Translations under genes and position numbers: made by a program
Source of the DNA: Escherichia coli 042
Lineage (GTDB): Bacteria; Pseudomonadota; Gammaproteobacteria; Enterobacterales; Enterobacteriaceae
DNA: 64,000 bases
Assembly (NCBI RefSeq): GCF_000027125.1
Contig: NC_017626.1
Reading direction: 5' to 3' (one strand)
In this document: one piece after another, positions 10,307 through 50,562 of the stretch
Position numbering within the stretch: position 1 is the stretch's first letter
How the letters are laid out: the number at the start of each line of letters is the position of its first letter
Notes under the pieces: model-generated
What the model was told of the DNA's origin: nothing
What the model saw: the letters and a program-made list of their open reading frames with translations, nothing else
Database searches by the model: none

Positions 10307-10319
10307 TTATCTGTATCCT

Positions 10320-22823: not shown

Positions 22824-23852
22824 ATGGGATTGTTTACGACCCGCCAGTTACTCGGTTATACCGAACAAAAAGTTAAATTCCGTGCGCTATTTCTGGAGCT
22901 GTTTTTCCGCCGTACGGTGAATTTCCACACCGAAGAGGTGATGCTGGACAAAATTACCGGAAAAACGCCGGTGGCGGCCTATGTCTCCCCGATCGTTGAA
23001 GGAAAAGTGCTGCGCCATCGTGGTGGTGAAACCCGCGTGTTGCGTCCGGGCTACGTCAAGCCGAAACACGAATTTAATTACCAGCAGGCGGTTGAGCGCC
23101 TTCCCGGTGAAGATCCGGCTCAGCTGAACGACCCGGCCTACCGTCGTCTGCGTATCATTACCGATAACCTCAAACAGGAAGAGCACGCTATTGTCCAGGT
23201 GGAAGAAATGCAGGCGGTGAATGCCGTGCTGTATGGCAAATACACCATGGAAGGGGAACAGTTTGACACGGTCGAGGTGGATTTCGGACGCTCTGAAGGA
23301 AATAACATTGAGCAGGCCGACGGTAAAAAATGGTCTGAGCAGGACCGTGATACGTTTGATCCGACGCATGATATTGACCTTTACTGCGATCAGGCCAGCG
23401 GTCTTGTGAATATTGCCATTATGGACGGTACGGTCTGGCGTCTGCTGAATGGCTTTAAGCTGTTCCGCGAAAAACTGGATACCCGTCGCGGCTCAAATTC
23501 ACAACTCGAAACGGCAGTGAAAGACCTGGGGGCGGTGGTGTCTTTCAAAGGGTATTACGGTGATCTGGCCATTGTGGTGGCGAAAACGTCTTATGTGGCA
23601 GACGACGGTACCGAAAAACGTTATCTGCCGGAGGGCACACTGGTCCTGGGGAATACGGCAGCAGAGGGCATTCGTTGCTATGGTGCCATTCAGGATGCGC
23701 AGGCGTTGTCCGAAGGTGTGGTGGCCTCTTCCCGTTATCCGAAACACTGGCTGACTGTGGGCGATCCGGCCCGTGAATTCACCATGACGCAGTCCGCACC
23801 GCTGATGGTGCTGCCGGATCCGGATGAGTTTGTGGTGGTGCAGGTGAAATAA
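22824..23852 (+). CDS. E: Major capsid protein E
   Basis: 342 aa, lambda gpE size and position. Confidence 0.9.
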   Translation: MGLFTTRQLLGYTEQKVKFRALFLELFFRRTVNFHTEEVMLDKITGKTPVAAYVSPIVEGKVLRHRGGETRVLRPGYVKPKHEFNYQQAVERLPGEDPAQLNDPAYRRLRIITDNLKQEEHAIVQVEEMQAVNAVLYGKYTMEGEQFDTVEVDFGRSEGNNIEQADGKKWSEQDRDTFDPTHDIDLYCDQASGLVNIAIMDGTVWRLLNGFKLFREKLDTRRGSNSQLETAVKDLGAVVSFKGYYGDLAIVVAKTSYVADDGTEKRYLPEGTLVLGNTAAEGIRCYGAIQDAQALSEGVVASSRYPKHWLTVGDPAREFTMTQSAPLMVLPDPDEFVVVQVK

Positions 23853-26821: not shown

Positions 26822-27261
26822 ACTTTGCCCTCAGACTGGCGCGTGAGATGGGGAGACCCGACTGGCGCGCCATGCTTGCCGGGATGACATCCACCGAATA
26901 TGCCGACTGGCACCGTTTTTACCGCACGCATTATTTTCAGGATACCCAGCTGGATATGCATTTTTCCGGGCTGACGTACGCTGTACTCAGCCTGTTTTTT
27001 TGCGATCCGGATATGCATCCCTCTGATTTCAGTCTGCTTGTCCCCCGGCATGAGGAAGAGCAGGTGGAGAGGCCGGATGAGGACAAAATGCTGATGCAGA
27101 AAGCGGCAGGACTTGCCGGAGGCGTCCGGTTCGGTGGGGACGGAGGGCGCGATATTTTATCGTCTGCGGATGTGGCGGATGTCATGGTGGATGATGCCGC
27201 ATTAATGATGGCTTCAGCGGGGATTCCGGGAGGTGTGAGATATGTCCCAGCCGGTTGGTGA
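26390..27261 (+). CDS. T: G-T fusion made by -1 programmed ribosomal frameshift
   Basis: G GGA AAG slippery heptamer at 26797-26803; the -1 frame is open from the slip site to 27261. Confidence 0.8.
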
Positions 27262-29812
27262 TCTTGTTATTGACCTTAGTCTGGATGCTGTCCGTTTCGA
27301 TGAGCAGATGAGCCGGGTAAGGCGTCATTTTTCAGGTCTGGATACCGACGCCAGAAAAACCGCCAGTGCTGTTGAACAGGGCCTGAGCCGCCAGGCGCTG
27401 GTTGCACAAAAAGCCGGGATTTCCGTCGGGCAGTATAAAGCGGCCATGCGAACCCTGCCCGCACAGTTTACGGATATCGCCACGCAGCTTGCCGGTGGTC
27501 AGAATCCCTGGTTGATCCTGCTGCAACAGGGCGGTCAGGTGAAGGACTCCTTCGGCGGGATGATCCCCATGTTCAGGGGGCTTGCCGGTGCGATCACCCT
27601 GCCGATGGTCGGGGTCACCTCGCTGGCGGTGGCGACAGGTGCGCTGGCGTACGCCTGGTACCAGGGCGACGCCACGCTTTCAGAATTTAATAAAACGCTG
27701 GTCCTTTCCGGCAATCAGGCCGGACTGACTGCCGATCGTATGCTGACGCTCTCAAGAGCCGGGCAGGCAGCAGGGCTGACGTTTAACCAGGCGAGAGAGT
27801 CACTGGCAGCCCTGGTGAATGCCGGTGTGCGTGGTGGTGAACAGTTTGATGCCATCAACCAGAGTGTCGCGCGTTTTGCGTCTGCATCCGGAGTGGAGGT
27901 AGATAAAGTCGCTGAAGCCTTCGGGAAGCTGACCACTGACCCGACGTCGGGACTGATGGCGATGGCGCGCCAGTTCCGTAACGTGACGGCAGAGCAGATT
28001 GCGTATGTTGCACAACTGCAGCGTTCCGGAGACGAGGCCGGGGCCTTACAGGCGGCGAACGATATCGCCACGAAAGGCTTTGATGAGCAGACCCGTCGCC
28101 TGAAAGAAAACATGGGAACACTGGAGACCTGGGCGGATAAAACAGGGAAGGCATTCAAATCGATGTGGGATGCCATTCTGGATATCGGTCGTCCGGAATT
28201 CTCAGCGGATATGCTCGCCAGTGCACAGAAGGCATTTGATGAGGCGGATAAAAAATGGCAGTGGTACCAGAGTCGGAGCCAGCGCCGCGGTAAAACCTCC
28301 TCTTTCCGGGCCAACCTTCAGGGCGCATGGGATGACCGGGAAAATGCCCGTCTGGGTCTGGCAGCGGCAACGCTGCAGTCGGATATGGAAAAAGCCGGTG
28401 AACTGGCGGCAAGGGACAGGGCTGAGCGTGAGTCGTCACAGCTGAAGTATACCGGAGAGGCGCAGAAGGCGTATGAGCGCCTGCTGACGCCACTGGAGAA
28501 ATATACCGCCCGGCAGGAAGAGCTGAATAAGGCCCTGAAAGACGGGAAAATCCTGCAGGCGGATTACAACACGCTGATGGCGTCGGCAAAAAAGGATTAT
28601 GAGTCGACGCAGAAAAAGCCGTCCGGTGTGAAGGTGTCTGCCGGTGAGCGCCAGGAAGACCAGGCGCATGCAGCCCTGCTGGCGCTTGAAACTGAGCTCA
28701 GGACGCTGGAGAAGCACAGCGGTGCGAATGAAAAAATCAGCCAGCAGCGCCGTGATTTATGGAAAGCGGAAAATCAGTATGTGGTCCTGAAAGAGGCCGC
28801 CACGAAACGGCAGTTATCTGAGCAGGAAAAATCCCTGCTGGCTCATGAGAAAGAGACGCTGGAGTACAAACGCCAGCTGGCTGAGCTGGGCGACAAGATT
28901 GAACACCAGAAGCGGCTGAATGAGCTGGCACAGCAGGCGGCGCGGTTTGAACAGCAGCAAAGCGCGAAGCAGGCGGCAATCAGCGCAAAAGCCCGCGGCC
29001 TCACCGACCGTCAGGCGCAGCGGGAGTCGGAAGAGCAGCGCCTTCGTGAGGTGTACGGTGATAATCCGGCTGCGCTGGCGAAGGCCACATCGGCACTGAA
29101 GAACACCTGGTCTGCGGAGGAGCAGCTTCGTGGAAGCTGGATGGCCGGGATGAAGTCCGGCTGGGGCGAGTGGGCGGAAAGTGCGACGGACAGTTTTTCG
29201 CAGGTTAAAAACGCGGCCACGCAGACCTTTGATGGTATTGCACAGAATATGGCGGCGATGCTGACCGGCAGTGAACAGAACTGGCGCAGCTTCACCCGTT
29301 CCGTGCTGTCCATGATGACAGAAATTCTGCTTAAGCAGGCAATGGTGGGGATTGTCGGGAGTATCGGCAGCGCTATTGGCGGGGCTGTTGGTGGCGGCGC
29401 ATCCGCGTCAGGCGGTACAGCCATTCAGGCCGCTGCGGCGAAATTCCATTTTGCAACCGGAGGATTTACGGGAACCGGCGGCAAATATGAGCCAGCGGGG
29501 ATTGTTCATCGTGGTGAATTTGTCTTCACGAAGGAGGCAACCAGCCGGATTGGTGTCGGCAACCTGTACCGCCTGATGCGGGGCTATGCGGAAGGTGGTT
29601 ATGTGGGCGGTGCCGGAAGTCCGGCGCAGATGCGGCGGGCTGAAGGCATTAATTTTAATCAGAACAATCACGTGGTGATTCAGAACGACGGTACGAATGG
29701 TCTGCCAGGTCCACAGATGATGAAGGCAGTGTATGACATGGCCCGCAAGGGTGCCCGTGATGAAATTCAGGCACAGATGCGCGATGGTGGTCTGTTCTCC
29801 GGAGGTGGATGA
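27242..29812 (+). CDS. H: Tail tape measure protein H
   Basis: 856 aa, lambda gpH size and position; coiled-coil-rich with Gly-rich C-terminal region. Confidence 0.9.
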   Translation: MSQPVGDLVIDLSLDAVRFDEQMSRVRRHFSGLDTDARKTASAVEQGLSRQALVAQKAGISVGQYKAAMRTLPAQFTDIATQLAGGQNPWLILLQQGGQVKDSFGGMIPMFRGLAGAITLPMVGVTSLAVATGALAYAWYQGDATLSEFNKTLVLSGNQAGLTADRMLTLSRAGQAAGLTFNQARESLAALVNAGVRGGEQFDAINQSVARFASASGVEVDKVAEAFGKLTTDPTSGLMAMARQFRNVTAEQIAYVAQLQRSGDEAGALQAANDIATKGFDEQTRRLKENMGTLETWADKTGKAFKSMWDAILDIGRPEFSADMLASAQKAFDEADKKWQWYQSRSQRRGKTSSFRANLQGAWDDRENARLGLAAATLQSDMEKAGELAARDRAERESSQLKYTGEAQKAYERLLTPLEKYTARQEELNKALKDGKILQADYNTLMASAKKDYESTQKKPSGVKVSAGERQEDQAHAALLALETELRTLEKHSGANEKISQQRRDLWKAENQYVVLKEAATKRQLSEQEKSLLAHEKETLEYKRQLAELGDKIEHQKRLNELAQQAARFEQQQSAKQAAISAKARGLTDRQAQRESEEQRLREVYGDNPAALAKATSALKNTWSAEEQLRGSWMAGMKSGWGEWAESATDSFSQVKNAATQTFDGIAQNMAAMLTGSEQNWRSFTRSVLSMMTEILLKQAMVGIVGSIGSAIGGAVGGGASASGGTAIQAAAAKFHFATGGFTGTGGKYEPAGIVHRGEFVFTKEATSRIGVGNLYRLMRGYAEGGYVGGAGSPAQMRRAEGINFNQNNHVVIQNDGTNGLPGPQMMKAVYDMARKGARDEIQAQMRDGGLFSGGG

Positions 29813-30843: not shown

Positions 30844-31587
30844 ATGACAGAGACAGAATCAGCGATTCTGGCGCACGCCCGGCGATGTGCGCCAGCGGAG
30901 TCGTGCGGCTTCGTGGTGAGAGCGCCGGAGGGGGAAAGATATTTTCCCGGCGTGAATATTTCCGGTGAGCCGGAGGATTATTTCCGGATGGCTCCGGAGG
31001 ACTGGCTGCAGGCAGAAATGCAGGGTGAGATTGTGGCGCTGGTCCACAGCCACCCCGGTGGTCTGCCCTGGCTGAGTGAGGCTGACCGGCGGCTGCAGGT
31101 GCAGAGTGATTTGCCGTGGTGGCTGGTCTGCCGGGGGGCGATTCATAAGTTCCGCTGTGTGCCGCATCTCACCGGGCGGCGCTTTGAGCACGGGGTGACG
31201 GACTGTTACACGCTGTTCCGGGATGCTTATCATCTGGCGGGGATTGAGATGCCGAATTTTCATCGCGGGGATGACTGGTGGCGTCACGGTCAGAATCTCT
31301 ATCTTGACAATATGGAGGCTACTGGTTTTTACCGTGTCGCACTGACAGAGGCGCAGCCGGGCGATGTGCTGCTGTGCTGTTTTGGTTCATCGGTGCCGAA
31401 TCATGCCGCCATTTACTGTGGTGACGGCGAGCTGCTGCACCATATTCCTGAACAACTGAGCAAACGAGAGAGGTACACCGACAAATGGCAGCGACGCACA
31501 CACTCCCTCTGGCGTCACCGGGCATGGCACGCATCTGCCTTTACGGGGATTTGCAACGATTTGGCCGCCGCATCGACCTTCGTGTGA
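30844..31587 (+). CDS. K: Tail tip assembly protein K (JAB/MPN plus NlpC/P60-like)
   Basis: ATG 30844 just after the L stop; HSHP motif. Confidence 0.8.
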   Translation: MTETESAILAHARRCAPAESCGFVVRAPEGERYFPGVNISGEPEDYFRMAPEDWLQAEMQGEIVALVHSHPGGLPWLSEADRRLQVQSDLPWWLVCRGAIHKFRCVPHLTGRRFEHGVTDCYTLFRDAYHLAGIEMPNFHRGDDWWRHGQNLYLDNMEATGFYRVALTEAQPGDVLLCCFGSSVPNHAAIYCGDGELLHHIPEQLSKRERYTDKWQRRTHSLWRHRAWHASAFTGICNDLAAASTFV

Positions 31588-32126
31588 AAACGGGGGCTGA
31601 AGCCATCCGGGCACTGGCCACACAGCTCCCGGCGTTTCGTCAGAAACTGAGCGATGGCTGGTATCAGGTACGGATTGCCGGGCGGGATGCAGGAGAAACC
31701 GAATTATCATCCCGTCTTAATGAGCCGCTGGCAAATGGTGCCGTGATCCACATCGTACCGCGTCTGGCGGGTGCCAAAAGTGGTGGTGTTTTTCAGGCAG
31801 TGCTGGGTGCGGCGCTGATTGCTACGGCAATCTGGATGCCAGGAATCAGTATCGCTTTCAGTAACATTCTCTTTTCTATGGGGGCAGCGATGACGCTTGG
31901 TGGTGTCGCACAGATGCTGGCCCCTAAACCCAAAACTCCACGTACACAGACAACGGATAACGGCAAACAGAACACCTATTTCTCCTCACTGGATAACATG
32001 GTTGCCCAGGGCAATGTCCTGCCTGTTCTGTACGGTGAAATGCGCGTGGGGTCACGTGTGGCATCTCAGGAGATCAGCACGGCAGATGAAGGGGATGGTG
32101 GTCAGGTTGTGGTAATTGGGCGGTAA
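31485..32126 (+). CDS. I: Tail assembly protein I
   Basis: 213 aa; lambda I-like by position and size; exact start uncertain because it overlaps the K ORF. Confidence 0.75.
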   Translation: MAATHTLPLASPGMARICLYGDLQRFGRRIDLRVKTGAEAIRALATQLPAFRQKLSDGWYQVRIAGRDAGETELSSRLNEPLANGAVIHIVPRLAGAKSGGVFQAVLGAALIATAIWMPGISIAFSNILFSMGAAMTLGGVAQMLAPKPKTPRTQTTDNGKQNTYFSSLDNMVAQGNVLPVLYGEMRVGSRVASQEISTADEGDGGQVVVIGR

Positions 32127-32198
32127 TATTATTTACTCATGTTCTAACTGATTTAATATTTATATCGAACACTGATAATTATTCTATTGGTTAGCTAT

Positions 32199-32537
32199 AT
32201 GAACAAAACGATTTTATTCTGCACGATTATTGCCTTAACAGGATGTAAATCTTTGGATTACGTAAAATCCGGAAAACCTGTAATGGAAGGTAATTCATTA
32301 AAAAATATTGATGAATTGTCAGGCTGCATATCCAGACAATGGGCTGGTAATGGAACACCTATAACATCCCTTCCTATTGAGAATGGGGTAAGCCTTTTAG
32401 TTCCACAGGCTATGGGGGGATATGATGTTGTGCTTGATATCAAAAAAGCAGGAAATGGCAGTAGTTTTACTCTTTATGAACGTGTACCAGCATTAACGCC
32501 AAAAATTTTTGCTGATAGTGTTAATGCATGTAAATAA
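32199..32537 (+). CDS. Lipoprotein cargo gene between I and J
   Basis: MNKTILFCTIIALTGC signal peptide with lipobox; AT-rich; inserted in the I-J gap that is empty in lambda. Confidence 0.6.
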   Translation: MNKTILFCTIIALTGCKSLDYVKSGKPVMEGNSLKNIDELSGCISRQWAGNGTPITSLPIENGVSLLVPQAMGGYDVVLDIKKAGNGSSFTLYERVPALTPKIFADSVNACK

Positions 32538-32603
32538 TAGTTAATCCTGCTGTAACTCATGAGCCGCCTTTTGGGCGGCTTTGTTGTTTATGGAGTGTGA
32601 GGA

Positions 32604-35600
32604 ATGGGTAAAGGAAGCAGTAAGGGGCATACCCCGCGCGAAGCGAAGGACAACCTGAAATCCACGCAATTACTGAGTGTGATCGATGCCATCAGCGAAG
32701 GGCCGATTGAAGGTCCGGTGGATGGATTAAAAAGCGTGCTGCTGAACAGTACACCGGTGCTGGACAGTGAGGGGAATACCAACATCTCCGGTGTCACGGT
32801 GGTGTTCCGGGCAGGTGAGCAGGAGCAGACACCGCCGGAGGGATTTGAATCCTCCGGTTCCGAGACGGTGCTGGGTACGGAAGTGAAATACGACACGCCG
32901 ATCACCCGGACCATCACGTCTGCAAACATCGACCGTCTGCGCTTTACCTTCGGTGTGCAGGCTCTGGTGGAAACCACCTCAAAGGGGGACCGGAATCCGT
33001 CGGAAGTCCGCCTGCTGGTTCAGATACAACGTAACGGTGGCTGGGTGACGGAAAAAGACATCACCATTAAGGGCAAAACCACCTCGCAGTATCTGGCCTC
33101 GGTGGTGGTGGGTAACCTGCCGCCGCGCCCGTTTAATATCCGGATGCGCAGAATGACGCCGGACAGCACCACAGACCAGCTGCAGAACAAAACGCTCTGG
33201 TCGTCATACACCGAAATCATCGATGTGAAACAGTGCTACCCGAACACGGCACTGGTCGGCGTGCAGGTGGATTCGGAGCAGTTCGGCAGCCAGCAGGTGA
33301 GCCGTAATTATCATCTGCGCGGGCGTATTCTGCAGGTGCCGTCGAATTATAACCCGCAGACGCGGCAATACAGCGGTATCTGGGACGGAACGTTTAAACC
33401 GGCATACAGCAACAACATGGCCTGGTGTCTGTGGGATATGCTGACCCATCCGCGCTACGGCATGGGGAAACGTCTTGGTGCGGCGGATGTGGATAAATGG
33501 GCGCTGTATGTCATCGGCCAGAATTGCGACCAGTCGGTGCCGGATGGCTTTGGTGGCACGGAGCCGCGTATTACCTGTAATGCGTACCTGACCACGCAGC
33601 GCAAGGCGTGGGATGTGCTCAGTGATTTCTGCTCGGCGATGCGCTGTATGCCGGTATGGAACGGGCAGACGCTGACGTTTGTGCAGGACCGGCCATCGGA
33701 TAAGGTGTGGACCTATAACCGCAGTAATGTGGTGATGCCGGATGATGGCGCGCCGTTCCGCTACAGCTTCAGCGCCCTGAAAGACCGCCATAATGCCGTT
33801 GAGGTGAACTGGATTGACCCGAACAACGGCTGGGAGACGGCGACAGAGCTTGTGGAGGATACGCAGGCCATTGCCCGTTACGGTCGTAACGTCACGAAGA
33901 TGGATGCTTTTGGCTGTACCAGCCGGGGGCAGGCACACCGCGCCGGGCTGTGGCTGATTAAAACAGAACTGCTGGAAACGCAGACCGTGGACTTCAGCGT
34001 GGGCGCAGAAGGGCTTCGCCATGTGCCGGGCGATGTCATTGAAATCTGTGATGATGACTATGCCGGTATCAGCACCGGCGGGCGCGTGCTGGCGGTAAAC
34101 AGCCAGACCCGGACGCTGACGCTCGACCGTGAAATCACGCTGCCATCCTCCGGCACCACGCTGATAAGCCTGGTTGACGGACAGGGGAATCCGGTCAGCG
34201 TGGAGGTCCAGTCCGTCACCGACGGCGTGAAGGTGAAAGTGAGCCGTGTTCCTGACGGCGTTGCCGAATACAGCGTGTGGGGGCTGAAGCTGCCGACGCT
34301 GCGCCAGCGCCTGTTCCGCTGCGTGAGTATCCGTGAAAACGATGACGGCACGTATGCCATCACCGCCGTGCAGCATGTACCGGAAAAAGAAGCCATCGTG
34401 GATAACGGGGCGCACTTTGACGGCGACCAGAGCGGCACGGTGAATGGTGTCACGCCGCCAGCGGTGCAGCACCTGACTGCCGAAGTCACCGCAGACAGCG
34501 GGGAGTATCAGGTACTGGCCCGCTGGGACACGCCGAAGGTGGTGAAGGGGGTGAGCTTTATGCTTCGCCTGACCGTGGCAGCGGATGACGGCAGTGAGCG
34601 GCTGGTCAGCACGGCCAGGACGACGGAAACCACATACCGCTTCACGCAACTGGCGCTGGGAAACTACAGGCTGACAGTCCGGGCGGCAAATGCCTGGGGG
34701 CAGCAGGGCGATCCGGCATCGGTATCGTTCCGGATTGCCGCACCGGCAGCGCCGTCGCGGATTGAGCTGACGCCGGGCTATTTTCAGATAACCGCCACGC
34801 CGTATCTTGCCGTTTATGATCCGACGGTACAGTTTGAGTTCTGGTTCTCAGAAAAGCGGATTGCGGATATCAGGCAGGTTGAAACCGCAGCCCGCTATCT
34901 TGGCTCGGCGCTGTACTGGATAGCTGCCAGTATCAATATCAAGCCGGGCCATGATTATTATTTTTATATCCGCAGTGTGAATACTGTTGGCAAATCGGCA
35001 TTCGTGGAGGCTGTCGGTCGGGCGAGCGATGATGCGGAAGGTTACCTGGATTTTTTCAAAGGAGAAATCGGGAAAACACATCTGGCCCAGGAGCTGTGGA
35101 CGCAGATTGATAACGGTCAGCTTGCGCCGGACCTGGCTGAAATCAGGACGTCCATTACGAATGTCAGCAATGAAATCACGCAGACCGTCAATAAAAAACT
35201 GGAAAATCAGAGTGCGGCAATCCAGCAGATACAGAAAGTTCAGGTTGATACAAATAATAACCTGAACAGCATGTGGGCCGTGAAACTGCAGCAGATGCAG
35301 GACGGACGCCTTTATATTGCGGGTATCGGTGCCGGTATTGAGAATACGCCAGCAGGAATGCAGAGTCAGGTGCTGCTGGCGGCAGACAGGATTGCGATGA
35401 TTAATCCTGCGAATGGCAACACAAAGCCGATGTTTGTTGGTCAGGGCGATCAGATATTTATGAATGAAGTGTTCCTGAAATATCTGACGGCTCCCACCAT
35501 TACCAGCGGCGGTAATCCTCCGGCATTTTCCCTGACACCGGACGGGCGGCTGACGGCGAAAAATGCCGATATCAGCGGTAACGTGAATGCGAACTCCGGG

Positions 35601-36083
35601 ACGCTCAACAACGTCACGATTAACGAGAACTGTCGGGTTCTGGGAAAATTGTCCGCGAACCAGATTGAAGGCGATCTCGTTAAAACAGTGGGCAAAGCTT
35701 TCCCCCGGGACTCCCGTGCACCGGAGCGGTGGCCATCAGGAACCATTACCGTCAGGGTTTATGACGATCAGCCGTTTGACCGGCAGATTGTTATTCCGGC
35801 GGTGGCATTCAGCGGCGCTAAACATGAGAAAGAGCATACTGATATTTACTCCTCATGCCGTCTGATAGTGCGGAAAAACGGTGCTGAAATTTATAACCGT
35901 ACCGCGCTGGATAATACGCTGATTTACAGTGGTGTTATTGATATGCCTGCCGGTCACGGTCACATGACACTGGAGTTTTCGGTGTCAGCATGGCTGGTAA
36001 ATAACTGGTATCCCACAGCAAGTATCAGCGATTTGCTGGTTGTGGTGATGAAGAAAGCCACTGCAGGCATCACGATTAGCTGA
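32604..36083 (+). CDS. J: Tail tip / host specificity protein J
   Basis: 1159 aa, lambda gpJ size and position. Confidence 0.9.
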
Positions 36084-36150: not shown

Positions 36151-36750
36151 ATGCGTAAATTATGTGCTGTTATTTTGTCCGCAGTAGTCTGGCAGGTCGC
36201 CGCTGCTACGCCAGCGAGTGCAGCAGAACATCAGTCCACGCTGAGCGCGGGGTATCTCCATGCCTCGACGAACGTTCCCGGTAGTGATGATCTGAACGGG
36301 ATTAACGTGAAATACCGTTATGAGTTTACGGACGCGCTGGGGCTGATTACGTCCTTCAGTTATGCCAATGCTGAGGATGAGCAAAAAACGCGCTACAGCG
36401 ATACCCGCTGGCATGAAGATTCCGTGCGTAACCGCTGGTTCAGCGTGATGGCGGGGCCGTCTGTACGCGTGAATGAATGGTTCAGCGCGTATGCGATGGT
36501 GGGTGTGGCTTACAGCCGTGTGTCGACTTTCTCCGGGGATTATCTCCGCGTAACTGACAACAAGGGGAAAACGCACGATGTGCTGACCGGAAGTGATGAC
36601 GGTCGCCACAGCAACACGTCTCTGGCGTGGGGGGCTGGCGTGCAGTTTAATCCGACCGAATCCGTGACCATTGACCTTGCTTATGAAGGTTCCGGTAGTG
36701 GCGACTGGCGAACGGATGCATTTATTGTTGGTATCGGATACCGTTTCTGA
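36151..36750 (+). CDS. lom: Lom-like outer membrane protein (Ail/Lom family)
   Basis: 199 aa; signal peptide, beta-barrel with C-terminal ...GIGYRF, directly after J. Confidence 0.85.
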   Translation: MRKLCAVILSAVVWQVAAATPASAAEHQSTLSAGYLHASTNVPGSDDLNGINVKYRYEFTDALGLITSFSYANAEDEQKTRYSDTRWHEDSVRNRWFSVMAGPSVRVNEWFSAYAMVGVAYSRVSTFSGDYLRVTDNKGKTHDVLTGSDDGRHSNTSLAWGAGVQFNPTESVTIDLAYEGSGSGDWRTDAFIVGIGYRF

Positions 36751-36901
36751 CAACAGACGCCGATTTATCTTCTGTAAATATTGTTATGATACGCAGGTTC
36801 ATCCACCTTATGGGGTGAACTGCGTTTGAGGAAACGTAAAGTTACACTGTCCTGAAGCCCGTGGCGTCACTGCTGCGGGCTTTTTTTATTGGTGGAAAAG
36901 T

Positions 36902-39900
36902 ATGACAGTAAAAATTTCTGGCGTGCTTAAAGATGGCACAGGAAAACCAGTACAGAACTGCACCATTGTGCTGAAGGCCAGACGAACCAGCAGCACGGTG
37001 GTGGTGAACACGGTGGCCTCTGAAAATCCGGATGAAGCCGGACGTTACAGCATGGATGTTGAGCATGGTCAGTACAGCGTCACCCTGCTGGTTGAAGGTT
37101 TTCCGCCTTCACATGCCGGGACCATTACCGTCTATGAAGGTTCCAGATCAGGTACGCTGAATGATTTTCTCGGTGCCATGACGGAGGATGATGTCCGACC
37201 GGAGGCACTGCGCCGCTTTGAGCAGATGGTGGAAGAGGTGTCACGTAACGCCTCCGCGGTTGCACAGAATACGGCAGCCGCGAAAAAATCAGCCAGCGAT
37301 GCCAGTGCATCAGCCAGCGAGGCGGCAACTCATGCAACCGATGCTGCAGCCTCAGCACGTGCCGCCAGCACGTCAGCCGGACAGGCCGCGTCGTCGGCTC
37401 AGTCAGCGTCTTCCAGCGCAGGAACGGCATCGACAAAGACCCGTGAAGCAGCAAAAAGTGCTGCTGCTGCAGAGTCATCAAAAAGCGCGGCAGCTACCAG
37501 CGCCAGTGCCGCGAAAACGTCAGAAACGAATGCCGCAGCATCACAAAAATCGGCAGCCACTTCTGCATCCACAGCGACCACGAAGGCGTCAGAAGCTGCC
37601 ACCTCGGCACGGGGTGCGGCGGCCTCAAAAGAGGCAGCGAAATCTTCAGAAACGAATGCATCATCAAGTGCCAGTAGTGCAGCTTCCTCGGCAACGGCGG
37701 CAGGAAATTCCGCGAAGGCGGCAAAAACGTCCGAGACGAACGCTAAGTCTTCTGAAACAGCAGCGGGACAGAGCGCCTCAGCTGCGGCAGGTTCAAAAAC
37801 AGCGGCTGCATTATCTGCCAGTGCCGCGTCAACAAGTGCCGGGCAGGCCTCAGCCAGTGCCACCGCCGCCGGAAAATCGGCAGAAAGCGCCGCATCATCC
37901 GCTTCAACAGCCACAACGAAGGCTGGCAAAGCCACTGAGCAAGCCACTGCAGCAGCGAGGTCTGCTTCTGCAGCAAAAACCTCTGAAACAAATGCAAAGA
38001 CTTCAGCAGACAATGCTGCTTCCTCTAAGGCGGCAGCCGCATCGTCAGCCAGTTCAGCGGCGTCATCGGCATCATCTGCGTCTGCTTCAAAAGATGAGGC
38101 GACCAGACAAGCGTCAGCAGCGAAAGGTAGTGCCACGACAGCAACAACGAAAGCATCAGAGGCGGCAGGCAGTGCGACGGCTGCATCTCAGAGCAAAGTT
38201 GCTGCTGAATCCGCGGCAACGCGCGCCGAGACAGCAGCAAAACGGGCAGAGGATATTGCATCCGCCGTGGCGCTGGAGGATGCGAGCACGACGAAAAAGG
38301 GGATAGTACAGCTCAGCAGTGCAACAAACAGCACCAGTGAAAAGCTGGCGGCAACGCCAAAGGCAGTTAAAACTGTTAAAGATAGTTCAGTTCAAAAAAC
38401 TGGCGACACAATGGGAGGGCAGTTAAAAATCAGCACGATAAATGCTCTTCGAATATTCAACCAAGCCTTTGGCCTTATTTTTAGGCGTTCCGAAGATCAT
38501 CTTCATCTTATTCCGACTAATGAAGGGGAGGGGGAAAATGGAGACATCGGTTCATTAAGACCATTCTCTATAAACTTAAGATCAGGGTTGGTGTCCATCG
38601 GTAATGGACTAAAAGTTGGTGGTAGTGTTACTGGTAATTTGACCGGAAACGCAGATACTGCGACCAAGATCAAGACAGCACGTAAGATTGGGGGCGTGGC
38701 ATTTGATGGATCGGCAGATATCAACTTGCCTGGAGTCAACGCTACCGGTAATCAAAACACTACAGGTAATGCTGCGACCGCCACGAAACTTCAGGCAGCC
38801 AGAACGATTAACGGTGTGTCATTTGATGGTAGTGCAAATATCACATTGACCCCTTCAAATATTGGGGCATTGGCATTAACTGGAGGGACTCTTTCAGGTG
38901 GTTTAACTGCTGCTGGTGAGGTTATTTCAAGGTCAGCAAATGGTCTGCGTATTGCCTATGGCAACTATGGATTCTTTATCCGAAATGATGGATCAAACAC
39001 ATATTTTATGTTGACAGATTCGGGTAACAGTCTTGGTACGCACAATAGCTTAAGGCCGTTTATAATTAGTAACCATACTGGCAATGTTACAATTGCAACT
39101 AAATTAAACGCGAGTGGTGGTATCACTGGATCTTTATCGGGTAATGCAAGCACAGCAACCAAATTGCAAACTGCAAGGACAATTAACGGCGTAAAATTTG
39201 ACGGCTCGGCAAATATTGAAGCGTTTCCGCCAGGTGTTCCGCTGCCGTGGCCATCAGATACACCACCTGCAGGTTATGCAATCATGCAGGGGCAGACGTT
39301 TGATAAGGCAGCATATCCGAAACTGGCTATTGCCTATCCTTCAGGTGTTATTCCAGATATGCGCGGCTGGACAATCAAGGGCAAACCCGCCAGTGGCCGG
39401 GCCGTATTGTCTCAGGAACAGGACGGCATTAAATCGCACACCCACAGCGCCAGCGCATCCAGTACGGATTTGGGGACGAAAAACACATCGTCGTTTGATT
39501 ACGGAACCAAATCCACGAATAACACCGGGGCGCATACCCATAGTATTAGCGGGACTGCAAATAGTGCCGGTGCGCACCAACACAAGAGTTCCGGTGCATT
39601 TGGTGGCACGAACACGAGCATTTTCCCTAATGGTTATACCGCGATTTCAAATCTAAGCGCGGGGATTATGAGCACAACAAGCGGTAGTGGCCTGACTCGT
39701 AATGCAGGGAAGACATCATCAGATGGTGCTCATACCCACTCGCTGTCCGGCACTGCTGCAAGCGCAGGCGCACATGCACATACTGTCGGTATTGGTGCTC
39801 ATACGCACTCCGTTGCGATTGGCTCACATGGACACACCATCACCGTTAACGCTGCTGGTAACGCGGAAAACACCGTCAAAAACATCGCATTTAACTATAT

Positions 39901-39916
39901 TGTGAGGCTTGCATAA
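36902..39916 (+). CDS. stf: Side tail fibre protein with long Ala/Ser/Thr-rich repetitive region
   Basis: 1004 aa; repeated KTSETNA-containing modules at roughly aa 100-470; repeats of '[G/N]GV(S/K)FDGSA' in the C-terminal half. Confidence 0.85.
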
Positions 39917-40500
39917 TGGTATTCAGAATGAGTGAACAACCACGGACCATAACAATTTATAATCTGCTGGCCGGAACTAATGAATTTATTGGTGAAGGTG
40001 ATGCATATATTCCGCCTCATACAGGTCTGCCAGCAAACAGTACCGATATTGCACCGCCAGATATTCCGGCAGGCTTCGTGGCTGTTTTCAACAGTGATGA
40101 GGCATCGTGGCATCTCGTTGAAGATCATCGGGGTAAAACGGTTTATGACGTGGCTTCCGGCGACGCGTTATTTATTTCTGAACTCGGTCCGTTACCGGAA
40201 AATGTTACCTGGTTATCGCCGGAAGGGGAGTTTCAGAAGTGGAACGGCACAGCCTGGGTGAAGGATACGGAAGCAGAAAAACTGTTCCGGATCCGGGAGG
40301 CGGAAGAAACAAAAAACAACCTGATGCAGGTAGCCAGTGAGCATATTGCGCCGCTTCAGGATGCTGCAGATCTGGAAATTGCAACGGAGGAAGAAACCTC
40401 ATTGCTGGAAGCCTGGAAAAAGTATCGGGTGTTGCTGAACCGTGTTGATACATCAACTGCACCTGATATTGAGTGGCCTACGAACCCTGTCAGGGAGTAA
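39916..40500 (+). CDS. tfa: Tail fibre assembly protein
   Basis: 194 aa directly after stf with ATGA overlap. Confidence 0.8.
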
Positions 40501-40554
40501 TCATTGGGATTATGCCGCAGCACGTCTTAAGCAAGAACGTGCTGCGGTTGGATG

Positions 40555-41223
40555 CTATTTTTTCCCTGAAGCGGAAAACATTACTACAGTACCTTGAACC
40601 TTGGTTTTAACATTCTCGAAATGCTCTGAGAGTATATGTGTTAAGCCTTCTTCGGAATCTTTTGTGTTTGAAAAGATGCCTTTCTGATTGTAAATGCGCA
40701 TCAGTTTTTGACCGAAGCTATTGTGCACAACTCCATCGCCAAGAATTGTGGCTCCGTATAGAGTTCCATCGTCAGTTAAGGCCTGCGCCGCATTGCGTAT
40801 TACACAGCTTTTTGTAGATATATTTCCAGGCAGGCAGTGAAGAAGGTAAAACATGGAAATGGAATCAAATTGACCATGTAACGCCGCGGGATAAGGTTCA
40901 AAAACATCATGGCTAATTTTATGTTTAATTTTTGATTCCCCAGCCCTTGTAGATGCCGCGTTCAGGCTAGCTTCGTTCAAATCCATTAAAGATATCAGAC
41001 TACTCTCAGGTACGTGAGTAAGGTAAAACCCAGTTCCAACACCAATATCCAGATGGTTGTTACCTAAATGTTCCAGAAAGTGTGGAAGAAGGTGTTCCTT
41101 TGTAGGACATCCCCATGCAAGCCGATTTGATACTCCCAAAACCCACCAGTCATAAAGCTTTAGGGTAAGTGGTGTGTAAATTTTAGCCCCATCATCTGTG
41201 TTTTTTTTCATTAATTTCACCAT
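40555..41223 (-). CDS. Class I SAM-dependent methyltransferase (cargo gene)
   Basis: 222 aa, AT-rich, opposite strand; HLDIGVGTGF resembles the Rossmann motif I of SAM methyltransferases. Confidence 0.6.
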   Translation of the reverse strand: MVKLMKKNTDDGAKIYTPLTLKLYDWWVLGVSNRLAWGCPTKEHLLPHFLEHLGNNHLDIGVGTGFYLTHVPESSLISLMDLNEASLNAASTRAGESKIKHKISHDVFEPYPAALHGQFDSISMFYLLHCLPGNISTKSCVIRNAAQALTDDGTLYGATILGDGVVHNSFGQKLMRIYNQKGIFSNTKDSEEGLTHILSEHFENVKTKVQGTVVMFSASGKK

Positions 41224-41279
41224 GTTATAGTTTTATTTGTGAATTAAATCAATTATGGCGATGAATTACAAGGGGTTAA

Positions 41280-41549
41280 ATGCTGCCGCAGCATAGCGAT
41301 ATTGAAATAGCCTGGTATGCTTCGATACAGCAGGAGCCGAATGGCTGGAAGACCGTCACCACACAGTTCTACATCCAGGAATTCAGTGAGTATATTGCGC
41401 CACTGCAGGATGCTGTAGATCTGGAAATCGCAACGGAGGAAGAAAGATCGTTGCTGGAGGCATGGAATAAATATCGGGTATTGTTGAATCGTGTTGATAC
41501 ATCAACTGCACCTGATATTGAGTGGCCTGCAAATCCTGTCAGGGAGTAA
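41280..41549 (+). pseudogene. Truncated second copy of tail fibre assembly gene
   Basis: 89-aa ORF whose last ~55 aa nearly duplicate the C-terminus of Tfa 39916..40500. Confidence 0.5.
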
Positions 41550-42322
41550 TCATTGGGATTATGCCGCAGACACGTCGTATGCAGGAACGTGCTGCGGTTA
41601 GTTTGTGAGCTTTCGATAGTGGTTGTTATTTTTGCCCTTATTTGTTCCGGAGGCCATGGTTCAATGGTCCGTCTGCCCCCTGTGGTGATGTCAGCAAAAT
41701 CAGCCACTGCGCGAACCACAATAGCCCGGGAAGATGCTGAAGATCACCAGGTAAAGCTGTCAGCGCAGAAACTGGAAGAACTGCTCGCATCAATGGTTAA
41801 GGATGAGGTTGATCGCAATGATGGGATTTATTGACGTCAGCGAGAGCAGAAGGAAGAACTGAATAACCTGAATGATTTACGCTCAATCAGAGCGATGATG
41901 ATTGGCAGTAATTAGCGGTCAATTTCGGTTTTTTTGGCTGTGCGCTCCCCGCCCAGCATTGCGCGTCAATTAGCCCCAAAAAAACGAAAAAGTTACAATC
42001 AAGTAAAAAATTCCTTCTGCAAAACTAAAAAAGATTTCAATAAAATCAGACAGTTAAAAGCATAAAAAAAGGTACAAAAAAAACATCTCAAAGTCTTGTT
42101 TTTTGCTTCAAATACAATTGGTTATTGTGTTTTTTGAAACCTACCAGTCTGGTACATGGATATCGATACCACCGCCAATTATAAGCTGGGCGGTGCACAG
42201 CAACACGATAGCGTACGCCTCGATCCGTGGGTGTTTATGTTCTCAGCAGGATATCGTTTTTAATTCCGCACAAAAACGACCCCGTAATATACGGGGTCAA
42301 TAAGGACATGGTATAAAGGGTA

Positions 42323-42829
42323 TTATTTCTTCGCTTCTACGCCATCAGTTTCAGAGCGAATTAAAAATTTCTCAGTTGTTTGCGGAATATGCTGAATCAG
42401 CCAGTCGGCCATTTCTTTTTCCTCATTTAAAATCGCTTCGATGGTTGGAATTGAAGCTGTATCACCGGCATTTTTTGCTGCTGCTAATAGTGAGGTGTAA
42501 CAGGCGATTTCAAATTGCTCGAAGACATATCCGCTAATAGAGCCTTTGACTATTTCATCAGAAGGGAATATACCACCGATTGACTGCCCAAGCGCAGCCA
42601 TTTTACTCATGGAATCTTTAATGACTGAACGTGAAATGTCATTACGATCAAGAATAGTTTCCAGTTGAACAATCTGGTTTTTGGTTTCACTAAGATGTTG
42701 TTCAATACGAGCGCGTAGTTCAGGATAATTATCTATACGACTAGCCATGGATTCAAGCATAGATTCGGCTTGCTTTTCCATTGCGTGGGCGTCACGTAAC
42801 CAGTCATGATAATGTTCAATACGATTCAT
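42323..42829 (-). CDS. yciE: YciE (ferritin-like, DUF892)
   Basis: 168 aa; recalled as E. coli YciE by sequence and position next to yciF. Confidence 0.85.
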   Translation of the reverse strand: MNRIEHYHDWLRDAHAMEKQAESMLESMASRIDNYPELRARIEQHLSETKNQIVQLETILDRNDISRSVIKDSMSKMAALGQSIGGIFPSDEIVKGSISGYVFEQFEIACYTSLLAAAKNAGDTASIPTIEAILNEEKEMADWLIQHIPQTTEKFLIRSETDGVEAKK

Positions 42830-42874
42830 GAAAATGTCCTCTTTATAAAATGACTAAAAGTTAAAGTTCATATT

Positions 42875-43375: not shown

Positions 43376-43460
43376 ATTTTTCTCCAGTGAAATCACTGCG
43401 AGCCATACGGCCCGCAGATGCAATTATCTTTATCAGCTGATATTAATAATTAACGGTGAA

Positions 43461-43640
43461 TCAGGATTTGCCTGATTTATTACCACCGCTTTGTTGACCG
43501 CCTTTTTTACCCGCTTCAGATGCGCGTTGCGGATCATTTTTAAAATTACCGCCGCTATGCTGACCGCCTTTACGGCCAGCGTCGGATGCCTTTTCACGGT
43601 CTTCGGCGAAATTTCCTGAACCACCACGATGTTCGGCCAT
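43461..43640 (-). CDS. yciG: YciG (KGG-repeat stress protein)
   Basis: Start taken at MAEHRGGSGNF...; KGG repeats. Confidence 0.8.
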   Translation of the reverse strand: MAEHRGGSGNFAEDREKASDAGRKGGQHSGGNFKNDPQRASEAGKKGGQQSGGNKSGKS

Positions 43641-46020: not shown

Positions 46021-46031
46021 TGTTCCTTTCC

Positions 46032-50551: not shown

Positions 50552-50562
50552 TGTTATTCTCT

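What the first reader, a model, noticed from the sequence alone, without database searches (positions are those of the whole stretch)
32160..32560. Lipoprotein cargo gene inserted between tail genes I and J
An AT-rich 112-aa ORF with a lipoprotein signal peptide (MNKTILFCTIIALTGC) sits in the I-J junction, which is contiguous in lambda, with its own AT-rich upstream region. Phage-encoded lipoproteins at such sites often block a receptor to exclude superinfecting phage, as Cor and Llp do. The function here is unknown.
Basis: partly seen in the sequence, partly recalled or inferred. Interest (0 to 1): 0.5.

Follow-up and report, generated by a model that had tools for sequence, protein, structure and literature searches.

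The report
Cargo lipoprotein gene in phage tail operon
A small gene for an outer-membrane lipoprotein of unknown function has been inserted between two tail genes of a lambda-like prophage; it belongs to a widespread, uncharacterised family carried in such tail gene clusters, and it probably protects the host cell against further phage infection, though not by masking one particular receptor.

Summary
A 112-codon ORF (32199-32537, +) with a textbook lipoprotein signal (MNKTILFCTIIALTG|C) and 36% G+C sits in a roughly 420-bp insertion between tail genes I and J. Lambda and 434 have only a 60-nt spacer there.

It is a genuine gene. dN/dS is about 0.06-0.2. It matches PHROG 914 (function unknown) at E=7e-33. 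It is present in about 336-339 of 5426 complete E. coli genomes, annotated 'hypothetical protein'.

The family comprises about 110-aa lipoproteins with three invariant cysteines, found in alpha-, beta- and gamma-proteobacteria. It includes phiKO2 Gp19, annotated 'putative moron'. All 80 related IMG/VR loci lie inside lambda-type tail modules, at three different sites: K-I, I-J and T-H. 77 of 80 are followed by a hairpin plus T-run.

The family shows no detectable homology to Cor, Llp or mEp010 Lpp. Identical copies sit next to J receptor-binding domains that are only 19-68% identical, while K, I and the N-terminal part of J stay at least 95% identical. It also co-occurs with Cor.

My best guess (about 0.4) is a receptor-independent entry block, working like HK97 gp15 or Ltp. 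A host-fitness role remains a serious rival. No own promoter was detectable. The finding is ordinary in kind (a moron lipoprotein) but a useful uncharacterised family.

The parts
30844..31587 (+). Tail gene K (C40/NlpC-P60 + JAB peptidase-type minor tail protein). This is backbone context.
   Evidence: ORF list. PHROG 30 at E=4.5e-161. RefSeq 'C40 family peptidase' in the collinear locus L003.
31485..32126 (+). Tail assembly gene I. The ORF is taken from the first ATG; the true start may lie further downstream. The cassette begins right after its stop codon.
   Evidence: PHROG 32 'tail assembly protein' at E=1.7e-83. Aligns to 434/lambda I up to the stop codon.
32127..32198 (+). AT-rich 72-nt leader of the inserted cassette. 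It has no convincing sigma-70 promoter (best match is 9/12 with a 15-nt spacer) and no clear Shine-Dalgarno sequence.
   Evidence: Sequence. Promoter scan found no + strand site. My own scan gave a best hit of TTAATA-15-GATAAT. The segment is absent from phage 434.
32199..32537 (+). Lipoprotein precursor gene: 112 aa, 97 aa mature, PHROG 914 / phiKO2 Gp19 family.
   Evidence: AF2 model with mean pLDDT 86. dN/dS 0.055-0.2.
32199..32243 (+). Signal peptide (aa 1-15): n-region MNK, hydrophobic core TILFCTIIA, then the first three lipobox residues L-T-G, which precede the lipidated Cys16.
   Evidence: h-region mean Kyte-Doolittle hydropathy 2.56. The lipobox is present throughout the family.
32244..32246 (+). 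Codon of Cys16, the predicted lipidated N-terminal residue of the mature protein. It is followed by Lys-Ser (no Asp at +2), which predicts outer-membrane sorting.
   Evidence: Cys16, Cys43 and Cys111 are the only invariant columns in 60 diverse family members. The +2 residue comes. The sorting rule is established knowledge.
32561..32591 (+). G+C-rich hairpin (9-bp stem) followed by a T-rich run, 12 nt upstream of J. It is terminator-like. It is homologous to the hairpin in the lambda/434 I-J spacer, so it is probably backbone rather than cassette.
   Evidence: Terminator scan. Aligns to the annotated 434 terminator. A hairpin plus T-run follows the family gene in 77 of 80 related loci.
32604..36083 (+). 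Tail tip / host-specificity gene J (1159 aa). This is backbone context. Its C-terminal 249 aa are 100% identical to VT1-Sakai J and 56% identical to lambda J.

Best explanation
Shown: this is a cargo cassette of about 420 bp, a 'moron' in the Hendrix sense. It sits in the I-J spacer of a lambda-like prophage tail operon and encodes a small lipoprotein precursor.

Inferred from sequence rules: after signal peptidase II cleavage, the 97-aa mature protein is lipidated on Cys16 and sorted by Lol to the outer membrane, because +2 is Lys rather than Asp. It hangs on a tether of only a few residues at the periplasmic face. It forms one compact alpha/beta domain (a beta-sheet with two packing helices), presumably clamped by a Cys43-Cys111 disulfide.

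The gene belongs to a large uncharacterised family (PHROG 914, phiKO2 Gp19) that recurs as a passenger of lambda-type tail modules in Proteobacteria. The family occupies three alternative slots: K-I (most common), I-J (the E. coli type seen here) and T-H (the slot of the HK97 gp15 moron).

Inferred function, most likely but unproven: a superinfection-exclusion factor that acts after receptor binding and independently of the receptor-binding domain of J. For example, it could interfere at the inner face of the outer membrane with the conserved tail-tip or tape-measure machinery that opens the DNA channel. In logic this resembles HK97 gp15 (tail-dependent, receptor-independent) or Ltp of TP-J34 (a lipoprotein that targets the tape measure protein), not Cor or Llp.

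The confidence of 0.4 refers to this functional reading. The anatomy (real gene, inserted cargo, lipoprotein, family membership) I hold at about 0.9.
For: Anatomy:
- ORF, lipobox and low G+C.
- The cassette is absent from 110 lambda-like phage records with the same I-J junction and from 434/lambda.
- It is present in about 336-339 of 5426 E. coli genomes.
- Purifying selection.

Family:
- PHROG 914 at E=7e-33.
- 248 clusters, all about 110 aa.
- Lipobox Cys plus two further invariant Cys.
- Members in alpha-, beta- and gamma-proteobacteria.
- phiKO2 Gp19 is annotated 'putative moron'.

Tail-module confinement:
- 80 of 80 IMG/VR loci: 27 I-J, 47 K-I, 6 T-H.
- The same holds for Klebsiella, Enterobacter, Serratia and Pseudomonas prophages.

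Receptor independence:
- An identical lipoprotein sits beside J C-termini that are 19-68% identical, with J N-termini at least 97% identical.
- Across 377 pairs with at least 95% identical lipoprotein, median J C-terminal identity is 0.56, against 0.98 (J N-terminus), 0.95 (I) and 0.97 (K).
- It co-occurs with Cor.

Structure:
- The model is confident from about residue 20. A helix starts at residue 19, three residues after Cys16, so the tether is short.

Precedents:
- HK97 gp15 lies in the T-H slot and excludes phages in a way that depends on the incoming tail and does not block receptors. It also has non-phage homologues (PMC3594210).
- The target of Ltp is the tape measure protein (Bebeacua et al. 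2013, as cited in PMC3952083).
- Lipoproteins encoded in the tail gene cluster of mEpimmI phages do exclude phages experimentally (PMC11893012).
Against: - No experiment or database annotation assigns any function. PADLOC, Pfam, NCBIfam and PDB sequence searches are all empty.
- No sigma-70-like promoter was found upstream, either here or in 42 distinct upstream regions of relatives, where scores equal those of shuffled controls. Expression from the repressed prophage, which exclusion by a lysogen needs, is therefore unsupported by sequence.
- The RBS here is weak.
- Co-inheritance with K, I and the J N-terminus may reflect only physical linkage.
- One family member sits in a core-gene context in an Alcaligenaceae genome, and another sits at a prophage end next to integrases. 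The family is therefore not intrinsically tied to tails.
Confidence: 0.4

Rival explanations
1. Host-fitness or virulence moron, like lambda Bor or Lom. The lipoprotein would alter an envelope property of the lysogen (serum or complement resistance, stress tolerance, adhesion) and have nothing to do with phage entry. Its place in the tail operon would simply be a permissive slot that is inherited along with the module.
For: - A cellular homologue lies in a core-gene neighbourhood in an Alcaligenaceae genome.
- Another member sits at a prophage end beside integrases, a classic lysogenic-conversion site.
- The window's prophage already carries Lom just downstream of J.
- Carriers include the ExPEC/APEC strains S88 and APEC O1; this is anecdotal.
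- The protein is strongly conserved within E. coli (98-100% aa) irrespective of J type.
Against: - All 80 viral loci place the gene inside tail modules, at three different sites. That is hard to explain by neutral hitch-hiking alone.
- No promoter for lysogen expression was detectable.
- Only about 6% of E. coli genomes carry it.
- No similarity to Bor was reported by any search.
Confidence: 0.25
2. Receptor-masking exclusion lipoprotein, as the first reader proposed (Cor/Llp model). It would bind the periplasmic side of the outer-membrane protein that the phage's own J uses and lock or hide it.
For: - It is an outer-membrane lipoprotein with a very short tether, as would suit binding the periplasmic face of a beta-barrel.
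- It is encoded one gene or less from J.
- Precedents are Cor and Llp (my own knowledge, plus PDB 8a60 'lytic conversion lipoprotein').
- mEpimmI Lpp021 and Lpp010 exclude phages by receptor group: OmpA-users and LamB-users (PMC11893012).
Against: - An identical lipoprotein is found with at least four J C-terminal types that are 19-68% identical. There is no co-variation with the J C-terminus within clusters: rho = -0.09 and 0.12.
- VT1-Sakai carries an identical J C-terminal domain with no homologue of the cassette gene detectable, and the whole J gene occurs without the cassette in most E. coli genomes that have it.
- The family spans hosts from Novosphingobium to E. coli with very different J proteins.
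- It co-occurs with Cor.
- There is no homology to Cor, Llp or Lpp010 beyond the signal peptide.
Confidence: 0.15
3. A late-expressed, phage-serving function. The gene would be transcribed only as part of the Q-antiterminated late operon and act during lytic growth. It might modify the outer membrane so that progeny are not lost on debris or vesicles, or it might assist envelope disruption or release.
For: - No own promoter was found here or in relatives.
- Intergenic gaps to the flanking tail genes are short: a median of 50-66 nt downstream, and 33-45 nt upstream in the Klebsiella, Serratia and phiKO2 copies.
- Most relatives have a strong RBS.
- Orientation is always that of the tail genes.
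Against: - The gene is dispensable: most lambda-like phages lack it.
- A hairpin plus T-run follows it in 77 of 80 loci. Its deviant G+C also fits a self-contained cargo unit.
- Protection of progeny from debris would again be receptor-specific, which the J data argue against.
- No similarity to spanins or other lysis proteins was reported.
Confidence: 0.15

Closest known systems
phiKO2 Gp19 / PHROG 914 (uncharacterised phage lipoprotein family)
   Same: Homologous. The window protein gives a full-length HMM match to PHROG 914 (E=7e-33). The link to phiKO2 Gp19 runs through the Fraca homologue, which is 31.5% identical to the window protein over 89 residues and 48.6% identical to Gp19. Size (about 110 aa), lipobox and the two further invariant cysteines are shared. 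The gene sits in a lambda-type tail module and is followed by a hairpin. The phiKO2 annotators already called Gp19 a 'putative moron'.
   Different: In phiKO2 and most relatives the gene lies between K and I; here it lies between I and J. No function has been assigned to any member.
HK97 gp15 (the first 'moron'; superinfection exclusion)
   Same: It is a small envelope protein encoded by an insertion inside the tail operon. Enterobacter relatives of the window gene occupy exactly the same T-H slot. gp15 exclusion depends on the incoming phage's tail and not on the receptor, and gp15 has non-phage homologues (PMC3594210). This matches the receptor independence and the cellular homologue found here.
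   Different: gp15 is an inner-membrane YebO-like protein with a documented promoter. The window protein is a predicted outer-membrane lipoprotein with no detectable promoter.
Cor (phi80/N15/HK022) and Llp (T5): receptor-inactivating lipoproteins
   Same: Small phage-encoded lipoproteins encoded near the receptor-binding protein gene.
mEpimmI Lpp021/Lpp010 (tail-cluster lipoproteins shown to exclude phages, 2025)
   Same: Lipoproteins encoded within the structural gene cluster of E. coli siphophages that have lambda-like J. Plasmid expression excludes phages (PMC11893012).
   Different: Lpp010 is 82 aa, lies downstream of J on the opposite strand, and is unrelated beyond the signal peptide. 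Its exclusion pattern follows receptor groups.
Ltp of Streptococcus thermophilus phage TP-J34
   Same: A prophage lipoprotein that blocks DNA injection by targeting the tape measure protein rather than the receptor (Bebeacua et al. 2013, as cited in PMC3952083). This is the mechanism I consider most likely here.
   Different: It belongs to a Gram-positive host, where it is exposed on the cell surface, and no homology was detected. The resemblance is functional only and is inferred.
Flpp3 / DUF3568 lipoproteins (Francisella)
   Different: Identity is 6%, there is no Pfam DUF3568 hit for any of 60 family members, and many unrelated alpha/beta domains score equally.

Membership tests
Bacterial lipoprotein (SPase II substrate) | Signal peptide with a positively charged n-region, a hydrophobic h-region and a lipobox [LVI][ASTVI][GAS]C | tested here: met
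   MNK / TILFCTIIA / LTG|C. The Cys is invariant in 60 diverse homologues, and the lipobox is present in nearly all of the 167 retrieved sequences.
Bacterial lipoprotein (SPase II substrate) | Actual lipidation and outer-membrane localisation | not testable with these tools
   Only the sorting rule can be applied. The +2 residue is Lys, not Asp, which predicts Lol transport to the outer membrane (established E. coli rule).
PHROG 914 / phiKO2 Gp19 family | Full-length profile match | tested here: met
   E=7.3e-33, residues 1-112 on profile positions 1-118 of 118. The Fraca homologue links to phiKO2 Gp19 at 48.6% identity.
Moron (Juhala/Hendrix definition) | Extra DNA present in one genome and absent at the same site in close relatives | tested here: met
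   Zero of 110 lambda-like phage records cover the insert. The alignment with 434 shows a clean insertion of about 420 bp. J with at least 80% coverage occurs in 2820 genomes, the cassette in about 336-339.
Moron (Juhala/Hendrix definition) | Base composition deviating from the neighbouring genes | tested here: met
   Gene G+C is 0.36 against 0.56 in the flanks. The Klebsiella, Enterobacter, Serratia, Fraca and phiKO2 copies show 0.39-0.43 against 0.52-0.53.
Moron (Juhala/Hendrix definition) | Own transcription terminator | tested here: inconclusive
   A hairpin plus T-run lies at 32561-32591, and one is present in 77 of 80 relatives. At the I-J site, however, the hairpin is homologous to one that cassette-less 434/lambda also have.
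Moron (Juhala/Hendrix definition) | Own promoter | tested here: not met
   There is no + strand sigma-70-like site. The best manual match is 9/12 with a 15-nt spacer. The 42 distinct upstream regions of relatives score no better than shuffles. Non-consensus promoters cannot be excluded.
Moron (Juhala/Hendrix definition) | Expression from the repressed prophage | not testable with these tools
   Needs RNA-seq or 5'-RACE of a lysogen.
Cor family | Sequence homology to Cor | tested here: not met
   hhalign of the family profile against Fraca Cor aligns only 31 columns: the signal peptide plus a few residues.
Cor family | Gene downstream of J in FhuA-dependent phages, as the sole exclusion lipoprotein | tested here: not met
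   The position is upstream of J. Cor homologues co-occur with family members in 8 of 42 loci that extend far enough past J, and also in Fraca.
Llp (T5 lytic conversion lipoprotein) | Sequence or fold similarity to Llp (PDB 8a60 / 7qjf) | tested here: not met
Receptor-matched exclusion (Cor/Llp way of working) | Exclusion protein co-varies with the phage's receptor-binding domain | tested here: not met
   An identical lipoprotein accompanies J C-termini that are 19-68% identical. Across 377 pairs with at least 95% identical lipoprotein, median J C-terminal identity is 0.56, against 0.95-0.98 for the backbone.
mEpimmI Lpp lipoproteins | Sequence homology to Lpp010 | tested here: not met
   hhalign aligns only the 18-column signal peptide. 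Lpp021 was not retrieved.
DUF3568 (Flpp3) | Pfam profile match | tested here: not met
Known anti-phage defence systems (PADLOC) | Match to any PADLOC model | tested here: not met
   Zero families for five family members at E up to 1.

The most novel reading that the evidence does not exclude
PHROG 914 lipoproteins would be a previously unrecognised, widespread class of receptor-independent superinfection-exclusion factors in Gram-negative bacteria. Anchored to the inner leaflet of the outer membrane, they would recognise a conserved part of the lambda-type tail tip or tape measure as it emerges through the outer membrane and abort channel formation. One protein would then exclude relatives whatever receptor they use. 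This would be a Gram-negative counterpart of Ltp, and it would explain why the gene travels with the K/I/J-N backbone rather than with the receptor-binding domain.
Probability: 0.3. Interest if true: 0.65.

Novelty: new member of a known kind. Interest (0 to 1): 0.4.

Why it matters
About 6% of complete E. coli genomes carry this gene, including the type strain, APEC O1, S88, O104:H4 and O55:H7. Related genes sit in lambda-like prophages of Klebsiella, Enterobacter, Serratia, Pseudomonas and many other Proteobacteria. Yet no function is assigned, and older annotations appear to have missed it, judging by its late-numbered locus tags in O104:H4 and O55:H7.

If it is an entry block that does not depend on the receptor, it would affect how prophages shape phage susceptibility, which matters for phage therapy and for typing of Enterobacterales. 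It would also give a handle on the poorly understood step at which siphophage tail tips cross the outer membrane.

If it is instead a host-fitness factor, it adds a conserved envelope lipoprotein to the lysogenic-conversion repertoire. Either way the test is cheap: one 340-bp gene on a plasmid and a phage panel.

Tried and rejected
Searches that found nothing useful:
- Pfam on the query and on 60 family members gave only the generic lipid-attachment motif.
- NCBIfam gave only a sub-threshold VirB7 signal-peptide hit.
- PADLOC gave nothing.
- The PDB sequence profile search gave only signal-peptide matches: FlgP, PqiC, Llp.
- Rfam around the site gave only a sub-threshold GcvB hit (19.5 bits against a gathering score of 42), so no RNA element is indicated.

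Fold searches:

Literature:
- Searches for WP_001332187 and phrog_914 returned nothing.
- The phiKO2 paper is not held.
- The two Stenotrophomonas phage papers and the prophage transcriptomics paper were irrelevant.
- The mEpimmI Lpp proteins looked promising but proved to be a different protein.

Other attempts:
- Promoter searches, by the tool and by my own scan with shuffled controls, were negative.
- The search for related loci with the broad alignment failed for lack of a conserved stretch; the narrower alignment worked.
- Several metagenomic contigs of distant members were too short to give context.
- P0006 was not on record.
- A chance-ORF explanation was rejected on conservation and dN/dS.
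Full report
**Observation**

The window carries a lambda-like prophage whose tail genes run H (27242-29812), M, L, K, I (31485-32126), J (32604-36083), lom (36151-36750) and stf.

Between I and J lies an ORF, 32199-32537 on the + strand. It encodes 112 aa beginning MNKTILFCTIIALTGC. Gene G+C is 0.36 against 0.56 for the 3 kb on either side. 200-nt windows dip to 0.31-0.40 exactly over 32100-32600.

Alignment with phage 434 shows the flanks are collinear and that about 420 bp are extra. The insertion starts immediately after the I stop codon. It ends just before a G+C-rich hairpin that 434, where it is annotated as a terminator, also has 12-20 nt upstream of J. In lambda, I ends at 15444 and J begins at 15505.

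**Is it a real gene?**

Yes, on four grounds.
- The protein matches PHROG 914 end to end at E=7e-33.
- A profile search of 1.84 billion cluster representatives finds 248 clusters at E<0.001, nearly all 105-125 aa long.
- In 60 diverse members the only invariant columns are Cys16 (the lipobox cysteine), Cys43 and Cys111. The lipobox is present in nearly all retrieved sequences.
- Against the O55:H7 CB9615 copy there are 5 synonymous and 1 non-synonymous differences (dN/dS 0.055). Against the Klebsiella and Enterobacter orthologues dN/dS is 0.14-0.20, with dS saturated.

**Distribution**

The cassette occurs at 95% nucleotide identity or more in about 336-339 of 5426 complete E. coli genomes, almost always once per genome. 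It is annotated 'hypothetical protein' (WP_001332187.1). Carriers include the type strain ATCC 11775, APEC O1, O104:H4 2009EL-2071, O55:H7 CB9615 and, from the AlphaFold database hit, ExPEC S88.

None of 110 sequenced lambda-like phages that share the I-J junction has it. By protein search, the only relatives in the phage collection are in Fraca, LMessi, phiKO2 and Serratia phage OS31. The phiKO2 annotators had labelled their copy, Gp19, 'putative moron gene product; similar to Xanthomonas gene XCC2962'.

Homologues at 50-60% identity occur in Klebsiella, Enterobacter, Kluyvera, Jejubacter, Citrobacter and Salmonella. More distant ones occur in Serratia, Pseudomonas, Bordetella, Achromobacter, Pandoraea, Glaesserella, Novosphingobium and others. 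All are named 'lipoprotein' or 'hypothetical'.

**Anatomy of the protein**

- The signal peptide has the canonical n-region (MNK), hydrophobic core (TILFCTIIA, mean hydropathy 2.56) and lipobox L-T-G-C.
- The residue after the lipidated Cys is Lys. By the established E. coli +2 rule (Asp means inner-membrane retention), this predicts Lol-dependent transfer to the outer membrane. This is inference, not shown.
- An AlphaFold2 model built on 12 homologues has mean pLDDT 86 and pTM 0.77, and is confident from about residue 20. A short helix begins at residue 19, so the tether is only a few residues long. The rest is one compact domain with strands 29-33, 56-60, 63-69, 75-84 and 87-94 and helices 37-50 and 103-111.
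- The invariant Cys43 and Cys111 lie in those two helices. A disulfide between them is inferred from invariance and the periplasmic location. It was not measured on coordinates.

**Structural neighbours**

**Genomic context of the family**

- In Klebsiella, Serratia and Pseudomonas prophages, and in phages Fraca, LMessi, phiKO2 and OS31, the gene lies between K and I.
- In Enterobacter prophages it lies between the tail chaperone T and the tape measure gene H. That is the slot of the original HK97 gp15 moron (PMC3594210).
- A scan of IMG/VR gave 80 loci. After labelling neighbours by BLASTP against reference tail proteins, all 80 lie in lambda-type tail modules, always in the orientation of the tail genes. 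The counts are 27 between I and J (all the E. coli type), 47 between K and I, and 6 between T and H.
- In 77 of 80 loci a perfect-stem hairpin followed by a T-run lies within 90 nt downstream.

The family is not exclusively tail-linked. One member lies at the end of a prophage next to two integrase genes. Another lies among core metabolic genes of an Alcaligenaceae genome.

**Expression signals**

The tool found no sigma-70-like site on the + strand near the gene. My own scan of the 72-nt leader gave at best 9/12 with a 15-nt spacer. Across 42 distinct upstream regions of relatives, the best scores (5-8 of 12) equal those of shuffled controls.

The window copy also lacks a clear Shine-Dalgarno sequence, whereas most relatives have one.

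The cassette thus has the composition, the presence/absence pattern and the terminator-like hairpin of a moron, but no recognisable promoter. Whether it is expressed in the lysogen, or only with the late operon, cannot be decided from sequence.

A receptor-masking protein such as Cor or Llp must match the receptor used by the phage's own receptor-binding domain. So it should co-vary with the C-terminal part of J. It does not.
- The window's J C-terminal 249 aa are 100% identical to VT1-Sakai J and 56% identical to lambda J. No homologue of the lipoprotein was detected in VT1-Sakai.
- J genes covering at least 80% of the query occur in 2820 E. coli genomes, about eight times more than carry the cassette.
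- Conversely, strain EA2 has the identical lipoprotein next to a 1132-aa J whose C-terminal 250 aa are 68% identical to the window's.
- Among IMG/VR loci with a 100% identical mature lipoprotein, complete J proteins of 1137, 1159, 1132 and 1084 aa have C-terminal identities of 0.19-0.68. Their N-terminal 600 aa are at least 97% identical.
- Over all 377 locus pairs with at least 95% identical lipoprotein, median identity is 0.56 for the J C-terminus, and 45% of pairs are below 0.5. It is 0.98 for the J N-terminus, 0.95 for I and 0.97 for K.
- Within the two large lipoprotein clusters, correlation with the J C-terminus is absent or negligible (rho -0.09 and 0.12).
- Fraca and eight IMG/VR relatives carry a Cor homologue downstream of J in addition to this gene.
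- The family profile aligns with Cor, Llp and mEp010 Lpp only over the signal peptide. The mEp010 Lpp is an experimentally proven exclusion lipoprotein of the tail gene cluster (PMC11893012).

The Cor/Llp model is therefore not excluded outright. A common, RBD-independent outer-membrane target remains conceivable. But the specific prediction of that model fails.

**What it most likely does**

The protein is an envelope protein with no enzyme-like features. It is held close to the inner face of the outer membrane. It is carried as optional cargo that travels with the conserved tail-tip backbone and not with the receptor-binding domain.

Three precedents fit this picture.
- HK97 gp15 is a tail-operon moron. 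Its exclusion does not block receptors and depends on the incoming phage's tail region. It also has cellular homologues (PMC3594210).
- Ltp of TP-J34 is a lipoprotein whose identified target is the tape measure protein (Bebeacua et al. 2013, cited in PMC3952083).
- The mEpimmI Lpp proteins show that tail-cluster lipoproteins of E. coli siphophages do exclude phages (PMC11893012).

I therefore commit to a post-adsorption, receptor-independent entry block as the most likely function, at about 0.4. Every step beyond 'outer-membrane lipoprotein cargo gene' is inference.

The main rival, at about 0.25, is a Bor/Lom-type host-fitness factor. It is supported by the non-phage and prophage-end homologues. 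A late, phage-serving role (about 0.15) is kept alive by the missing promoter and the tight embedding in the operon.

**Comparison with the known, and novelty**

The gene is a member of an already catalogued but functionally blank family (PHROG 914, phiKO2 Gp19). It is an instance of a well-known kind of element, a moron-encoded envelope lipoprotein.

It is not a member of the Cor, Llp, mEpimmI Lpp, DUF3568 or any PADLOC family.

Three things are new here:
- the I-J slot of the E. coli variant;
- the demonstration that the family occupies three alternative slots of lambda-type tail modules across Proteobacteria;
- the decoupling from the receptor-binding domain.

I rate it 'new member of a known kind', interest 0.4. 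It is an ordinary type of feature but a good, cheap experimental lead.

**Caveats**

- The co-variation analysis uses simple ORF calls and BLAST labels, and sampling is not phylogenetically corrected. Truncated J ORFs were filtered only by length and position; one 993-aa fragment remained and is ignored.
- Linkage alone could explain co-inheritance with K, I and the J N-terminus.
- Only one cellular context and one prophage-end context were examined.
- Promoter scans detect only consensus sigma-70 sites.
- The disulfide and the membrane localisation are predicted, not shown.

Noticed in passing
L002 5647-6336 (phage LMessi); L001 5725-6336 and 11579-11812 (phage Fraca): In Fraca/LMessi-type modules the K-I slot holds two tandem lipoprotein genes. 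The first is a PHROG 2320 member (MRKFLSILACSLIIVGC..., function unknown). It is followed by the PHROG 914 member. Fraca additionally has Cor downstream of J (LMessi has no annotated Cor), which makes up to three lipoprotein genes around one tail tip. 26 of 80 IMG/VR loci have the first gene, and 15 of those show a recognisable lipobox in my ORF calls.
   Followed up: partly
window 32561-32591; L004 549-568 (phage 434); L015 about 7370-7395: The terminator-like hairpin just upstream of J is conserved in cassette-less lambda/434. An almost identical stem-loop (AAACCGCCTCCGGGCGGTTTT) follows the lipoprotein gene in a Pseudomonas prophage. Hairpins plus T-runs punctuate these late operons generally; phiKO2 and mEp010 have many annotated. 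Their role inside a Q-antiterminated operon is unclear.
   Followed up: partly
L109 8001-8342 (Alcaligenaceae genome); L110 8001-8339: A family member lies among core genes (PHO4, MoCF biosynthesis, DUF924, M23 peptidase, FBP aldolase, pur genes), apparently not in a prophage. Another lies at a prophage end, after the lysis genes and next to two integrase genes. The family therefore has cellular and non-tail locations.
   Followed up: partly
window 35334-36080: The C-terminal 249 aa of J are 100% identical to J of the Stx1 phage VT1-Sakai and only 56% identical to lambda J. This phage need not use LamB. I did not determine its receptor.
   Followed up: partly
window 10147-10396 and 11372-13225: Three tRNA genes (Met-CAT, Arg-TCG, Arg-TCT) precede a 617-aa ORF. 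That ORF corresponds to the 'SASA family carbohydrate esterase' of the collinear prophage in NZ_AP022298. As I recall, this is the layout of the late region of Stx-type lambdoid phages; I saw no toxin gene there but did not search for one.
   Followed up: no
window about 40380-51780: The prophage ends near 41.9 kb, next to an ompW remnant, yciE/F/G and the trp operon. This region is 99% identical and collinear with E. coli BEC1-S17-ESBL-09. A class I SAM-dependent methyltransferase gene lies on the opposite strand (40555-41223) among tail-fibre assembly remnants.
   Followed up: partly
window 36902-39916: The side tail fibre gene (1004 aa) has a long Ala/Ser/Thr-rich low-complexity stretch (roughly aa 110-470). 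It is the one part of the tail region that differs from the otherwise collinear reference prophage (only 87% identity over 378 nt at its start, then no match).
   Followed up: no
window 36160-36753 (- strand): A 197-aa ORF runs antisense over the whole lom gene. It is most likely a mirror ORF of no significance.
   Followed up: no
L003 8795-11769: In the reference strain carrying an identical cassette, the prophage protease gene is frameshifted and the major capsid gene has an internal stop, so that prophage is defective. In the window the corresponding ORFs (20877-22382, 22824-23852) look intact.
   Followed up: no
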